A stretch of DNA of 56,388 nt from a virus (IMGVR_UViG_2909282993_000001:1-56388), one strand, 5' to 3'. Positions 51,001-56,388 are shown, numbered from the stretch's first letter. Program-made: the numbers.

Positions 51001-54000
51001 ATACTACAGACTTTTTGCTGGCTGGTTCAATTTGGAAAGATCCTCAGGACTGGATGAGGGGGCTAAACAAAAAAGAACGCTTCTTATCTGCCACATGGAA
51101 GGGAACAAAAGAAATACCATTAAAAAACAATATCGATACTATCTCTATTGAGGCCAGAGCGAACAATTCCACTCAGGGATATGTCTATCTGCAGTACTCA
51201 TTTACAAATGACGAAATTTGTCAGGAAGAAATTGAAGGGGCGAAAAAAAGTTCCCTTTAAACAATCCGTGCAAAGCCCCTTAGTAAGGGGCTTTTATATA
51301 TTAATGTTCAACGGGGGGGATTAGATGAAAGATAATCTAGAAAAACTAATTGAAAATACTTTAAAAGATATTCTATTAGCTAATGCTGCTCTAACATTCA
51401 TTTTTGCAATACCAATGGCTATTATCAGTAGGCATGGGATGGGCATCACAATCTGGTTTATAACTGTGCTCATTGCACCTGCTCTGTGTGCAGTAGGTGC
51501 ATGGCTTGTATCTCGAACATTCGGCCATGCTGAGGAGTTCTTTCATCGTCGGTGGGCTAAGCGAATCTATGTTTTTTATACTCTTGCGGCTGCCGAGTTT
51601 TTGCTTGTGTACTCAATCGCGCAAATAATGAAAAATCTGATGAAATAATTAACAAGTTATTATCATGGGGTTTGTGGCTGTTAACCTGCAGTGAGGCGAC
51701 AATCGTGTATTTATAAAAACTTCCCCTTTTCACTCCCCGCTGTTTCTTCTGCTATTTCCTTTATGTTTGCATGCAGCAACATCTGCCATACCTTTGCAGA
51801 AAAATCAGAGCATTTAGTGCCGAAGGTTGGTTTATTGATGCTTTTTGTTTCATTTATTGCAATTATCGATGGTATTATTTCAATTTGTGCAATAATTGCA
51901 ATTATTGTCATTCAGAAGGGATCATCATGAAAAATCACGGAGTAAAGCCAGTTTTACTTTCCCGGGGGCAGATCGAAGCCCTGCAACGTATCCAGGCCGA
52001 AAAGCGTCAGAAATCTGTGCTTGGTGTGGCACCGTCGATTTATGTTATTGCCCGGCAACTGATGGATAAGGCACTTAAAGAGGTGAGGCTGTGAAATTAA
52101 ATATCAGAGTGGATAAACGCCAGCTATGGCAGAAAAAAGAGAACAGCGAGGCATTCAGGGCTTTGCTGGTGGAAAATCTTCGGCACCGGTTCAGTGGAGA
52201 GTTGCCTGATGCACTGGGGAAGAAACTGGAATCCCTGACGGTGGAAATTGGCGATTATGGCTTTGTTGATGTTGAAAGCACGACTGCCAACACAGAAATC
52301 GTAAAGCAGGTCGTCAATGATGTAATGAAAACCACGCTTAGCCAGCCATCCTGGCGCAACTGAATCAGTAAGGGGCGGTTATTGCCCCTTTCCTCCATAC
52401 CCACAACGCATTCCCTTTTCGCATTAAATTATTTTTTATCGTATATGCATGAGGTGAGCTACATGTTGATGAGTAAAGCCGAATACGCCAAATACAAAGG
52501 CGTAAGCCGCCAGACAGTTTACGACTGGATCGAGAAAGGCGAAGTGATCATGTCTGGCAAAAAAATTGATGTGGAGGCGACAGAGCAGCGGAACAGCCCA
52601 CCGGCACAGGGGAAAGACACCGTTTCTGAAATGTGGCCAGAAAGAACGCTGGAAATGACGTGGGGCGAGTTCTGGAAAGCAGTTAAGGCCAGAGACGGTA
52701 TAATCCCTGCGCCAGTAACGGACGACGACATACAGCAACGTGTGCTGGATGCAGCCGGGGAATTAGACTGGGAAGTGCAATTTCTTGATGATGGCGGGAT
52801 TTGGATGGATGACGGCGATGCTGAGTTTTATTTCGAGCAATATGATCTCAGGCAGAATGCCGAACTGGTGATTGGTACGCTGCGACGTGAGGTCTGTTAT
52901 GTGGCTGATGCTTGTCCTGACGAGCTGGATAACTGGAGCGAAGCCGGACTAAACGCCCTGGCTGAATGGGAAAAATCAGACCATCAATGACATCAAAAAG
53001 TGTCAAGTTGAGCAGCTTGCCAGGTTGACACTTTACACTCTGAACGCGAAAAAGTGTCAACCTCGCTGTAAGCCCCGCCATTACTGGGTTTGTGCCAGAT
53101 TTACCACGTCAAAAAGCCGAAAAAATCGCGAAAAGTGTCAAGTTGCTATGCTTAGAAATGCTAAGGTTTGATAAGGTTTTTCGCGAAAAAGTGTCAAGTG
53201 TGTCAACCGCGCCGCTTTAGAAAACTTTATGTGCAGATCGTTGGATGCATCTGTCAAAACTTGCCACCCACCAGCACCGCCAGCGGGGATTTTTGGCTAC
53301 ACGCGCTCTAAGTAACAGTTGCTTCAGTGCGTTACATACGTTGGAAGTGTTATAACTCAAGTTTTTGAGACAAAGTCAGAATTGTATGAATTTGTCTATA
53401 GCCGTCTACTCAAGTTTTCTACATAATATAAGGAAATAGCATGCTGTTTAATTAATGTACGATAATTCTGAAAGAGTAACAGATGATAAACTTAGATATG
53501 GATGTTGTGGTTGGACATGGGCAGAACGATTTTGAAGAATTAGAAATGAATTCCGGCATAAAGGTTTTTGCTGGAGCTTCTGACATCACCCAAATTACAA
53601 CAAGCACTATTTTAGATGATTCAGTCCCCAAAAAATCAACCTCTATACATGGGCTTAGGAATATGTTCAAACATACATTTGATGGATCGTTTGGACAAAA
53701 TTTTGAACTTAGAATTGATGATCCTGAAAAGATAAAAAGATTTAATGAAATTGGCAGGGGTGTTTTTTTTGATGTTATGTCATATTACATCTCTAAAGGA
53801 ATGGGAATAGCTCACCATCTTAAGAGCCAGAAAGCAATCGACTTAGTAGAGCGTCTTAAACCGCTTGAAAAACAACTTTTGATAAGAATTCAGGAACCTA
53901 TACAGAATTTACATAAAACAGTTGAGAAGCAAAAATATAATGTACTTCTGAGAAGAAGAACACCAACTAAAAAATTAGTTGTTGCTAAAATGGATACGCA

Positions 54001-56388
54001 GACGCTCTTCAATATCAATGTAGAGCATGAATCTGCTCAACCAGTAGAAGAAAATGTTATTATAACTAGGTTTAATATGTTAACAGGAACTGGTCGATTG
54101 TTATTAGATAGACAGTCAGATTCAATTGCCTTTAGACACCATCTTAATTGGGAACATGTATTGCAGTCTCAGAAAAATAAGTTTTCAAGGAATCTTGATA
54201 GGAATAACAGAGGTGGTAAAGACGCTTTTATACCTATAACCATTTCTGCTTATGAGTTGCGCGATCATATTGGAGAGCTCAAGGCTTATATAATTAGAGA
54301 AATATTGTAAATGAAGATGCCCTCAATCAAAGTTATTTCACTTATATTAATAGCTATTGTATGGTATTTTTACTTTTCTCATTTCAATCATTGGGATAGC
54401 CCGTTAGATATCTTTAATGCTAGCAAATGGATGGGTTTTTCCAATGATAAAGGTGATTGGGGCACTTTCGGGGATTTTGTAGGAGGTGTGCTTAATCCTA
54501 TCTTGACCTTCATTACAATTGTTATGCTCATTAATTCCTTGAAACTTCAACGAGAAGCAAACGAGCAACTAATTAAAGACGAAAGAAGACAAGAGAAAGA
54601 CGTTCTTCTAAAACGGTTTGAAGACGGTTTTTATAACCTTATCTCTTCAGAAAGAGAGGAGTTTAGTTGTTTTACTATTAACATTAACGGAAAAGAATAC
54701 CGCTCATCTGCTGCTGTTAGTGAATTGGAAGAGGCAATATGGGCTTTTATTGAGAAACAAATAGATGAAAAAGGAGCTTGCGAAATTGAGGATGTTAAAA
54801 ATTACATAAATAAAATTGATGAGGATTCATCTATGGCAATATTTTCCATGGTGCGATGTGTATATGTTGTTTTTAAGGTTGTTAAGGATAAATGCCCTGA
54901 AGAACATCAAGATTACTACTTAGATATTTTTATGAATATGTTACCAGTTAAACTGGTAAATTTAGTTGCTATTGTGTCTGTGTATATGGACTGGAAAAAC
55001 GTAAAATATATTATTGATGGTGGAAAAGGATTTTCGGATAATGAAGCAGTTAAAGAATATATTAATACTTGGAAGGAGTTTCATGAATAAAAATAATTTC
55101 TGATGTTTTGTTTCAAATGTGATGATTAATAAATAATGTTGTATAAGTGATGAATACTTGTTAAAGATGTTTTGTTTAATATCATGATTTTTTAACTTTT
55201 ATGGGGTCGTAAGAACTAACTCATAATTATTGAGCATCGTTCTCCGTCGGGATAGGAAATTTAAATGGGGGTATCTTTGGGGGTATCAAGTTAAATGGAA
55301 TGAATTAAATGTATTATAAATCAATTGATTGCGGAGTATGTTCTGTTCCTATTATCGCACCATTTAAATCAAGTAGTTACCCCATATTTAAATACACCAC
55401 GTTTCCTCCTGTGCCGTATTTGTGCCATTGTAACCCTGGCAATTAATCAAAATACTGTTCTGACATCAGGCAATGTAGGTGCAGACATTTAAGCCAATTG
55501 CTGCCGCCATTCCTTGACGTGGTCAATCAGGGCGCGGAGCTTTGGTGCAATATTGCGACGCTGTGGGAAATACAGATAGAAGCCCGGAAATTGTGGAAGA
55601 AAGTCATCAAGCAGAGATACAAGCTTACCGCTTTCAATATACGGCCTGAAAGTTTCCTGAGTGGCAATTGTTATTCCTCCACCGGCAAGAGCCAGCCGCA
55701 ACATCAGACGCAGATCATTAGTCGTAATCTGCGGTTCAATCGCAAGGTCGAAAGCTCTCCCGTTTTCTTCAAATGGCCAGCGATAAGGCGCAACCTCCGG
55801 GGACTGACGCCAGCCGATACACTTATGATTCACAAGTTCACGCGGATGAACAGGTGTGCTGTTGGCTGCGAGATAGGAGGGAGAGGCAACGACCATTTCA
55901 CGCTGCCTGCCGGTAAGGGGAACAGCAATCATGTCTTTTTCAATGACCTCTCCGAGCCTTACGCCAGCATCGTAACCTGCGGCAACGATATCGAATTCCT
56001 CATCCGTGACAACAATATCAAGCGTAACGGCTGGATTGGCAGCTGCAAACGAAGCGATTAGCGGACCTGAAAGAAATTCTTCTGCTATCGACGTCACCGC
56101 GATTCTGAGATGTCCACGTGGTACATGGTCAGAGACCATCTCTTCGAACGCTGCCTCAATACCGGATAAAGGTAATGACAACGATTTATGCAGCCGTTCT
56201 CCCGCTTCCGTCAAATTAACTGAGCGCGTGGTCCGCATTACAAGCATTGTCCCGAATGCATCTTCAAGACGTCTTATTCCCTGACTGACCGCTGAACGGG
56301 TAACGCCCAGTCGTGCGGCGGCTTTACTAAAATTACTCTCTTCTGCTACCGCGATAAAAATGGGTAAAAGATTAAGATCGATTTTCAT

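What the first reader, a model, noticed from the sequence alone, without database searches (positions are those of the whole stretch)
53483..55090. Terminal AT-rich two-gene operon in the P4-like island: candidate uncharacterised defence/abortive-infection module
Two tightly coupled genes (stop/start TAAATG) sit at the att-distal end of the satellite island. Their composition is sharply AT-rich compared with the island's replication genes. Gene 1 is a 275-aa soluble protein. Gene 2 is a 259-aa protein with two N-terminal transmembrane helices, a charged coiled-coil-like linker and a C-terminal domain. A cytoplasmic partner plus membrane effector at the edge of a P4-like satellite is the arrangement seen in known satellite defence hotspots. 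Neither protein shows motifs of a system I can name.
Basis: partly seen in the sequence, partly recalled or inferred. Interest (0 to 1): 0.75.

Follow-up and report, generated by a model that had tools for sequence, protein, structure and literature searches.

The report
Two-gene AbiC-like candidate phage defence
Two always-linked genes at the edge of a small mobile island in E. coli, one for a soluble protein with an OB-fold-like domain and one for a membrane-anchored distant relative of the lactococcal abortive-infection proteins AbiC/AbiP, fill a slot where sister islands carry proven anti-phage systems, so they are most likely an unnamed and untested anti-phage module.

Summary
Two ORFs lie at 53483-54310 and 54311-55090, joined by TAAATG. 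They are 33% GC against 49% for their surroundings and are under strong purifying selection (dN/dS 0.06 and 0.14).

The defence-cargo reading is well supported by context:
- The pair lies about 245 bp inside attR of a 14.5-kb island integrated at thrW.
- Related islands diverge at about 53212-53235. In the same slot they carry PARIS (AriA/AriB), a methyltransferase+DUF262+HEPN set, or other cargo.
- Gene 1 relatives were followed by a gene 2 relative in all 19 loci (9 contig loci plus 10 IMG/VR loci) where it could be checked. Carriers were lambdoid, P2-like and Pf prophages and a capsid-encoding satellite.

- The island is not a canonical P4. It has a P4-type integrase and a primase, but no Psu, Sid or Delta.
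- Gene 2 does belong to a family that can be named. It is a remote homologue of putAbiC-bearing proteins (hhalign 99.7%, E 1e-25), although it falls below the Pfam and PADLOC AbiC/AbiP thresholds.

Gene 1 belongs to a small family of about 270-aa proteins with DUF7946 and DUF7947 domains. Its C-terminal domain is a basic, OB-like barrel.

No source or paper searched names the pair. The function is inferred and has not been tested. I rate it a new variant of a known kind, of moderate interest.

The parts
40741..40787 (.). attL of the island: a 47-bp copy of the 3' end of thrW. The true tRNA-Thr(CGT) is at 1369-1444.
40953..42167 (+). Island integrase of the P4 type (Arm-DNA-bind_3 + Phage_int_M + Phage_integrase).
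53212..53235 (.). Left border of the variable cargo slot. DNA shared with sister islands ends here, just after the last AAAAGTGTCAA repeat.
53310..53482 (+). About 175 nt upstream leader or promoter region that travels with the pair. It is about 85% identical to the DNA upstream of the pair in Klebsiella phage Kp4865-4. The flanks beyond it are unrelated.
53483..54310 (+). Gene 1: a soluble 275-aa protein of the DUF7946-DUF7947 family. The N-terminal domain is acidic. The C-terminal domain is a basic, OB-fold-like barrel (residues ~188-274) with an invariant F-N-x-x-T-G-T-G-R hairpin motif (TRFNMLTGTGR in this protein).
54311..55090 (+). Gene 2: a 259-aa protein anchored in the membrane. It has two TM helices, an invariant WGTFGDxxGGxxNP motif at the start of TM2, a charged stalk helix, and a helical C-terminal domain. 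It is a remote homologue of putAbiC (AbiC/AbiP group) proteins.
55336..55362 (.). attR: a degenerate copy of the thrW 3' end. It is followed by core DNA resembling the sequence downstream of thrW.

Best explanation
The pair is a self-contained, horizontally mobile two-component anti-phage (abortive-infection type) cassette of about 1.8 kb, with its own upstream region. It sits in the cargo slot next to attR of a satellite-like island at thrW.

Shown:
- The two genes are always linked and appear translationally coupled.
- The cassette rides on at least five kinds of mobile element.
- In sister islands the same slot holds PARIS and restriction-like systems.
- Gene 2 is homologous to putAbiC-bearing proteins across the membrane anchor and stalk.
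- Gene 1 has an OB-like, basic C-terminal domain.

Inferred mechanism:
- Gene 1 is the cytoplasmic sensor or adaptor. Its basic OB-like barrel would bind a phage-derived ligand, most likely single-stranded nucleic acid or a nucleoprotein.
- Gene 1 would thereby release or activate gene 2.
- Gene 2 is anchored in the inner membrane. Its N-terminus and its C-terminal domain probably face the cytoplasm (weak charge evidence only).
- Gene 2 would then abort the infection in one of two ways. It could disturb the membrane through its conserved polar Asp55/Asn62/Pro63 TM2 motif. Or, as reported for AbiC and AbiP, it could block late phage gene expression or replication.

I put anti-phage function at about 0.65. 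I put this particular sensor-to-effector order at about 0.3.
For: Hotspot. Sister islands carry PARIS, a methyltransferase+DUF262+HEPN set and other cargo at the identical position.

Linkage.
- 9 of 9 contig loci and 10 of 10 testable viral loci keep gene 2 directly after gene 1.
- The gap between the genes is -11 to +3 nt.
- Pairwise identities of the two genes correlate, r = 0.83.
- The pair is 3-18 GC points below its flanks in all 9 loci, and 6-18 points below in 8 of them.

Carriers.
- E. coli thrW island.
- Klebsiella lambdoid phage, between the P-like gene and the DUF968 gene.
- Citrobacter icd prophage, next to int.
- Flank of a P. aeruginosa Pf-like prophage.
- Pseudomonas island encoding a capsid and protease, with a P4-type integrase.
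- phiCTX/P2-like prophage.
- Both proteins match PHROG families: phrog_13337 at 9e-56 and phrog_8999 at 1e-45.

Gene 2 and AbiC.
- Distant hits carry PF16872 putAbiC.
- hhalign of the gene 2 family against those hits gives 99.7%, E 1.2e-25.
- A gene 2 family HMM aligns into the putAbiC domain region of P0030, P0039 and P0029.
- Two of the five putAbiC-bearing hits (P0040, P0032) match the PADLOC AbiC and AbiP models; P0030 matched neither.
- AbiC has two TM helices and AbiP has one. AbiP binds nucleic acid (review PMC13064643).

Gene 1.
- AF2 pLDDT is 77.7.
- The C-terminal domain has a median pI of 9.6, above 8.5 in 31 of 37 family members.
- The whole-library search found 141 cluster representatives. 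Nearly all full-length hits are about 260-285 aa, and none shows an added domain.
- A distant gene 1 relative (P0213) sits in a P2-like context and is followed by a 172-aa protein with one TM helix, a stalk and a helical domain. The theme of a soluble partner plus a membrane-anchored partner therefore persists.

Selection. dN/dS is 0.064 and 0.143.
Against: - No phenotype exists for this pair.
- A lactococcal 'AbiC-like' protein with 38% identity to AbiC gave no protection in one study (PMC11381338), so homology does not guarantee activity.
- Gene 2 and its close family fall below the Pfam putAbiC cut-off and below the PADLOC AbiC and AbiP models.
- Homology of the C-terminal domain taken alone is weak (hhalign P = 0.008, probability 5%).
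- The most conserved N-terminal motif of gene 1 (FKxxFDGSFGQ) lies in a region of low confidence.
- Nothing shows that the two proteins interact, or which one senses the phage.
- The primase of the island is frameshifted, so the element may be decaying.
Confidence: 0.5

Rival explanations
1. A toxin-antitoxin type addiction module. Gene 2 would be a membrane toxin and gene 1, upstream and translationally coupled, its protein antitoxin. The main role would be to stabilise the mobile element, and any phage effect would be secondary.
For: - The upstream soluble gene plus downstream small membrane protein, coupled by TAAATG, matches the antitoxin-first operon layout.
- The pair is always inherited as a unit.
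- It sits on many mobile elements.
- Standalone relatives of gene 2 exist, so gene 1 could be an added regulator.
Against: - Gene 1 (275 aa) is larger than gene 2 and has two conserved globular domains. That is atypical for an antitoxin.
- Standalone putAbiC relatives evidently need no antitoxin.
- PARIS, in the same slot, was shown not to be a toxin-antitoxin pair (PMC9122126). This bears only on the slot, not on this pair.
Confidence: 0.15
2. A superinfection-exclusion system. The membrane protein, with its partner, would block DNA entry or an early membrane step of incoming phages without killing the cell. It would serve competition between prophages and satellites.
For: - The pair is carried by temperate phages of several types and by satellites, at moron positions.
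- Gene 2 is an inner-membrane protein.
Against: - The bulk of gene 2 (about 180 aa) and all of gene 1 are predicted to be cytoplasmic, with only about 25 residues in the periplasmic loop.
- The relatives AbiC and AbiP act after DNA entry (PMC13064643).
Confidence: 0.15
3. Cargo that is not defence. It could be a moron acting on host membrane physiology, or a satellite function directed at its helper phage. In that case its presence in the slot would be incidental.
For: - All sources call both proteins 'hypothetical protein'.
- No catalytic motif was recognised.
- Several sister cargos also lack defence annotation.
Against: - The same cassette occurs in full prophages of unrelated morphotypes, including filamentous Pf. 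A helper-specific satellite function is therefore unlikely.
- The only named homology is to abortive-infection proteins.
- The slot holds validated defence systems.
Confidence: 0.1

Closest known systems
AbiC of Lactococcus lactis / Pfam putAbiC (PF16872), grouped with AbiP as 'AbiC/P' (PMC13064643)
   Same: - Two N-terminal TM helices, a stalk helix and a helical extramembrane domain.
- The WGTFGDFxGGxLNPIL motif and the FE..FF motif are shared with putAbiC-bearing proteins.
- The profile-profile match is 99.7%, E 1e-25.
- Carried on mobile elements.
   Different: - Below the Pfam and PADLOC thresholds.
- Shorter: 228-262 aa, against 267-343 aa for the putAbiC-bearing hits and 344 aa for AbiC, a length I recall from memory.
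- Similarity of the C-terminal domain is weak.
- Always paired with a DUF7946-DUF7947 gene. The putAbiC proteins and N-module relatives that were checked are standalone.
AbiP of Lactococcus lactis
   Same: A membrane-anchored abortive-infection protein whose activity needs both the anchor and a nucleic-acid-binding function. Here the presumed nucleic-acid-binding OB-like domain is present in the system.
   Different: - In AbiP both functions lie in one chain with a single TM helix. Here the OB-like domain is on a separate protein.
- The PADLOC AbiP model does not hit gene 2.
- Nucleic-acid binding by gene 1 has not been tested.
RexA/RexB of phage lambda (and the RexAB-like Sucellos system)
   Same: The logic is the same: a cytoplasmic protein of about 275 aa paired with a membrane protein, encoded by a prophage. 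In RexAB the sensor triggers a membrane effector, as described in bioRxiv 10.1101/2024.07.02.601686.
   Different: - RexB has four TM helices and no large cytoplasmic domain (from memory).
PARIS (AriA/AriB)
   Same: It occupies exactly the same cargo slot in sister islands. It is a two-gene system found on satellites (PMC9122126).
   Different: The proteins are unrelated: an AAA ATPase and a DUF4435 TOPRIM protein. The PADLOC AriA and AriB models do not hit gene 1 or gene 2.
PADLOC candidate PDC-M02 (unpublished candidate system)
   Same: Gene 1 residues 36-84, which include the conserved FDGSFGQ motif, match the PDC-M02B model weakly (E 2.4e-4).
   Different: - The match is short and marginal.
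- The other gene 1 family members tested do not hit the model.
- Gene 2 hits no PDC model.

Membership tests
AbiC / putAbiC (PF16872) | Pfam putAbiC domain scored above the gathering threshold | tested here: not met
   No PF16872 hit for gene 2 (E up to 1) or for any of 16 family members (E up to 10).
AbiC / putAbiC (PF16872) | Match to the PADLOC AbiC or AbiP HMM | tested here: not met
   No hit for gene 2 or for the Citrobacter and Pseudomonas orthologues. Two putAbiC-bearing proteins, P0040 and P0032, do hit both models.
AbiC / putAbiC (PF16872) | Homologous N-terminal module: membrane anchor, WGxFGDxxGG motif and stalk | tested here: met
   - BLASTP against P0029, P0039 and P0040 gives E 2e-19, 6e-17 and 2e-13.
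- hhalign gives 99.7%, E 1.2e-25 over columns 40-220.
- The family HMM hits all 12 distant proteins.
AbiC / putAbiC (PF16872) | C-terminal domain homologous to the putAbiC domain | tested here: inconclusive
   Full-length alignments run into the putAbiC region of P0030, P0039 and P0029. hhalign on the C-terminal part alone gives only P = 0.008, in the same register.
AbiC / putAbiC (PF16872) | Single-gene system | tested here: not met
   Gene 2 always follows a gene 1 homologue. The relatives checked, P0032, P0040 and P0038, have no such partner.
AbiC / putAbiC (PF16872) | Abortive-infection phenotype | not testable with these tools
   Needs phage challenge experiments.
DUF7946-DUF7947 proteins (PF25678 + PF25679) | Both Pfam domains, in this order, in a protein of about 270 aa | tested here: inconclusive
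   - The window protein itself scores only 14.9 bits on DUF7947 (cut-off 27) and has no DUF7946 hit.
- 30 of 37 full-length homologues hit DUF7946 (best 7.7e-10) and 26 of 37 hit DUF7947 (best 1e-6).
- The window protein aligns end to end with them, at profile E-values of 1e-44 to 1e-141.
- Membership is therefore by transitive homology.
P4-like satellite | P4-type integrase and alpha-like primase-helicase | tested here: met
   - Integrase domains Arm-DNA-bind_3, Phage_int_M and Phage_integrase.
- DUF5906 and Pox_D5 domains, and phrog_864 DNA primase at 1.6e-107.
- The primase is frameshifted.
P4-like satellite | Psu, Delta and Sid capsid-redirection genes, with the cargo hotspot between psu and int | tested here: not met
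   No Pfam or PHROG hit of these kinds in the island ORFs scanned. The cargo slot is at the opposite end from int. Rousset 2022 defined the P4 hotspot by psu (PMC9122126).
Defence hotspot of a mobile element | Conserved flanks with variable cargo that includes validated defence systems | tested here: met
   - Homology in 167 genomes stops at about 53212-53235.
- Seven different cargos were found in nine islands, including PARIS and a methyltransferase+DUF262+HEPN set.
RexAB | Homology to RexA or RexB | tested here: not met
   [not shown]

The most novel reading that the evidence does not exclude
The pair founds an unnamed two-component defence family. In it, an AbiC/AbiP-type membrane protein works with a separate sensor protein that carries an OB fold (DUF7946-DUF7947). 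Distant members swap the two-TM partner for a one-TM partner, which mirrors the AbiC versus AbiP difference. If so, the split architecture would separate ligand sensing from the membrane step. It would give a tractable E. coli model for the mechanism of AbiC/P, which has stayed unknown since 1992.
Probability: 0.3. Interest if true: 0.7.

Novelty: new variant of a known kind. Interest (0 to 1): 0.55.

Why it matters
If the pair is active, three things follow.
- It adds a compact two-gene anti-phage system (about 1.8 kb) that PADLOC (2023 models) does not detect. It is present in about 1% of complete E. coli genomes and in Klebsiella, Serratia, Citrobacter, Yersinia, Enterobacter and Pseudomonas.
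- It links the long-known but mechanistically opaque AbiC/AbiP group to a separable partner, a candidate sensor. That would make the question 'what triggers AbiC-type proteins and what do they do at the membrane' directly testable in E. coli.
- It defines a second satellite hotspot next to attR, which the psu-anchored P4 survey could not see. Sister cargos there with no PADLOC hit (DUF4747+199 aa, a 532-aa protein, 229 aa + zinc-ribbon protein) are further candidates.

Tried and rejected
- Direct Pfam, NCBIfam and PADLOC scans of both proteins gave only marginal hits: DUF7947 at 0.028, EI24 at 0.053 and PDC-M02B at 2.4e-4. I treat EI24 as TM-composition noise and PDC-M02B as unconfirmed, because other family members do not hit it.
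- PDB sequence-profile searches found nothing.
- The Foldseek search of gene 2 against viral structures found nothing with E <= 0.001.
- The afdb50 library was unavailable.
- The promoter and terminator scan found no more sites than shuffled controls.
- Literature searches for DUF7946, DUF7947, putAbiC, PDC-M02 and the two RefSeq accessions returned nothing.
- A tblastn search of plasmids with P0040, meant to recover lactococcal AbiC itself, found no Lactococcus record. Comparison with the founder protein therefore goes only through the PADLOC models.
- The third gene after the pair in P. aeruginosa (256 aa, one TM helix) is unrelated and specific to that locus.
- I considered a holin or lysis role for gene 2 and rejected it. 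The pair is never next to lysis genes, and gene 2 has a large cytoplasmic domain.
- I rejected canonical P4 identity for the island.
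Full report
OBSERVATION

The stop of the first abuts the start of the second (TTG TAA ATG).

GC content falls to 0.33-0.35 over the pair, against 0.45-0.55 over the island's replication genes. The pair is 0.334 GC and the rest of the window 0.493.

Gene 1 has no hydrophobic segment. Gene 2 has two, at about 5-25 and 55-77, followed by a stretch with 20 charged residues among 43.

Both genes are real. Against the copy in Klebsiella phage Kp4865-4, dN/dS is 0.064 for gene 1 and 0.143 for gene 2.

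The window is 100% identical to E. coli F9792 and to two other strains, one of them typed O169:H41. The pair occurs in 57 of 5426 complete E. coli genomes, once per genome and always on the chromosome.

THE ISLAND AND ITS CARGO SLOT

The island is bounded by att sites derived from thrW.
- tRNA-Thr(CGT), thrW, lies at 1369-1444.
- A 47-bp copy of its 3' end lies at 40741-40787.
- A degenerate copy lies at 55336-55362.

The element is therefore about 14.5 kb, sitting in tandem behind another prophage.

It encodes the following:
- a P4-type integrase;
- an AntA-like protein;
- an Icd-like protein;
- a primase-helicase, frameshifted here;
- ProQ/FinO and PerC-like proteins;
- an HTH protein with a weak match to a terminase small subunit.

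No Psu, Sid or Delta was found. It is a satellite-like island, not a canonical P4.

The pair lies at the end distal to the integrase, about 245 bp inside attR.

This position is a true variable slot.
- 167 E. coli genomes share the DNA upstream. Homology stops at about window position 53212-53235.
- In the same slot, sister islands carry:
  - AAA ATPase + DUF4435, which is PARIS. For the O104:H4 C227-11 proteins PADLOC gives AriA 5e-43 and AriB 3.6e-22. Strain AHS8C65RI carries the same annotated gene pair, which was not scanned.
  - A methyltransferase, a DUF262 protein (NsnA/PD-T4-2_A-like, 1e-55) and a HEPN-like nuclease.
  - DUF4747 plus a 199-aa protein.
  - A 662-aa protein.
  - A 532-aa protein.
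  - A 229-aa protein plus a zinc-ribbon protein.
- PARIS is an experimentally validated system that was first found on satellites (PMC9122126). That survey anchored its hotspot on psu, so it could not have sampled this slot.

THE PAIR IS ONE MOBILE UNIT

Gene 1 homologues were followed by a gene 2 homologue in every locus where it could be checked:
- metagenomic enterobacterial contigs (46%, 30% and 32% identity);
- a Citrobacter prophage at icd, between the core gene and int;
- Pseudomonas chromosomes;
- the flank of a P. aeruginosa Pf-like filamentous prophage;
- a Pseudomonas island with a P4-type integrase, a DUF3987 primase, an S78 protease and a capsid gene;
- a Klebsiella lambdoid phage, between the P-like replication gene and the DUF968 gene;
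- 10 of 10 testable IMG/VR loci, including phiCTX/P2-like prophages.

Across nine loci:
- the gap between the genes is -11 to +3 nt;
- the pairwise identities of the two proteins correlate, r = 0.83;
- the pair is always more AT-rich than its flanks, by 3-18 GC points, and by 6-18 in eight of the nine loci.

E. coli and the Klebsiella phage share about 175 nt upstream of gene 1 and nothing downstream of gene 2. The cassette therefore runs from about 53310 to 55090.

GENE 2

Direct family scans fail. Even so, the word-index search reached proteins that carry Pfam PF16872, 'putAbiC, putative phage abortive infection protein'.

The evidence for homology is:
- BLASTP alignments with those proteins are significant, E 2e-19 to 2e-13. 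They cover the WGTFGDFxGGxLNPIL motif, TM2, the stalk and the FE..FF motif. With P0039 the alignment continues into the putAbiC domain.
- Profile-profile comparison gives 99.7%, E 1.2e-25 over columns 40-220.
- A family HMM aligns through the start of the putAbiC domain in three of the five putAbiC-bearing proteins.
- The C-terminal domain taken alone gives only P = 0.008.
- Two of those putAbiC-bearing proteins, P0040 and P0032, hit the PADLOC AbiC and AbiP models. P0030 hit neither, and gene 2 does not hit them.

The AF2 model (pLDDT 82.6) shows TM1, one long helix over residues 47-119, a hairpin and a helical bundle. The 2026 review groups AbiC (two TM helices) and AbiP (one TM helix, binds nucleic acid) by their extramembrane fold, and states that their mechanisms remain unknown (PMC13064643).

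I conclude that gene 2 is a divergent member of the AbiC/P superfamily. It belongs to a distinct and shorter subfamily.

GENE 1

Ten close homologues grew to 42 with a profile search. Of 37 family members scanned, 30 hit DUF7946 and 26 hit DUF7947.

The exhaustive search of 1.84 billion cluster representatives found only 141 with E <= 1e-3. Nearly all full-length hits are about 260-285 aa, and none shows an added domain.

The barrel is basic, with a median pI of 9.6. The N-terminal domain is acidic, at 5.6. The invariant FNxxTGTGR motif (TRFNMLTGTGR in the window protein) forms the first hairpin of the barrel.

A distant relative (P0213, E 4e-7) sits in a P2-like early region. It is followed by a 172-aa protein with one TM helix, a charged stalk and a helical domain. 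That protein is not detectably homologous to gene 2. The theme of a soluble partner plus a membrane-anchored partner therefore persists even when the membrane protein changes.

MECHANISM

What is shown:
- a mobile, tightly coupled pair;
- a location in a defence slot;
- AbiC-type ancestry for the membrane protein;
- an OB-like, basic domain in the partner.

What is inferred:
- Gene 1 senses a phage-derived ligand, probably a nucleic acid.
- Gene 1 controls gene 2.
- Gene 2 aborts the infection at or from the inner membrane.

The conserved polar residues in TM2 (Asp55, Asn62, Pro63) and the GxxxG-like glycines suggest oligomerisation or an ion path.

The rivals are a toxin-antitoxin addiction pair, superinfection exclusion, and a moron unrelated to defence. 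None can be excluded without experiments.

NOVELTY

All sources call both proteins 'hypothetical protein'. PADLOC 2023 does not detect the pair. None of the full-text searches run — DUF7946, DUF7947, putAbiC, PDC-M02 and the two RefSeq protein accessions — returned a paper.

I could not run current DefenseFinder models or search subscription journals, so a recent naming cannot be ruled out.

I classify the pair as a new variant of a known kind: an AbiC/P-type effector with a new obligatory partner. Interest is moderate. Candidate systems in hotspots are common. This one offers a possible handle on an old, unsolved abortive-infection family.

Noticed in passing
window 52991-53201: Five copies of AAAAGTGTCAA lie directly after the HTH gene with a weak terminase-small-subunit match (52382-52990). 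They are conserved in sister islands, and the last copy marks the end of conserved island DNA. They could be a packaging site or an operator.
   Followed up: partly
window 48815-49149: Three iteron-like copies of GTAGACAGTTGGTAGACAG lie in the AT-rich gap just after the primase-helicase gene. This is probably the island's replication origin.
   Followed up: no
window 46982-48786: The primase-helicase is split into two overlapping ORFs, and RefSeq marks it as a frameshifted pseudogene. PerC is also frameshifted. The island may be defective in replication while its cargo stays intact.
   Followed up: partly
window 1369-40787: thrW is followed by about 39 kb of another prophage (tail-fibre assembly genes, a pin invertase pseudogene). 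A second copy of the thrW 3' end follows. Two elements are therefore integrated in tandem at one tRNA gene.
   Followed up: partly
window 42290-43093: A 267-aa ORF immediately after the integrase has no Pfam or PHROG hit and rather low GC (0.41-0.45). This is the position of the canonical P4 cargo hotspot next to int, so it may be a second cargo gene.
   Followed up: no
L020 6957-8449; L022 7150-8748; L023 7074-9493: Sister-island cargos in the same slot have no PADLOC hit: DUF4747 + 199 aa, a 532-aa protein, and 229 aa + a 576-aa zinc-ribbon protein. They are further untested defence candidates.
   Followed up: partly
window 43108-43231: A tandem 33-nt repeat (43166-43231) and nearby TACCCTGAGGGT palindromes lie upstream of the AntA-like gene. 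This may be an operator region.
   Followed up: no
L041 3001-3924; hit H63 (Shewanella phage MuM16-1): The N-terminal TM and GTFGDFxGG module of gene 2 also occurs in lone genes on the opposite strand inside Mu-like prophage head regions. It also occurs in small E. coli and Salmonella plasmid proteins. The module is widely reused.
   Followed up: partly
L042 3001-4430: A distant gene 1 relative in a P2-like early region (Ogr_Delta, CP76, HTH_31) is paired with a different membrane protein of 172-189 aa with one TM helix. This suggests that partners are exchanged within the family.
   Followed up: partly
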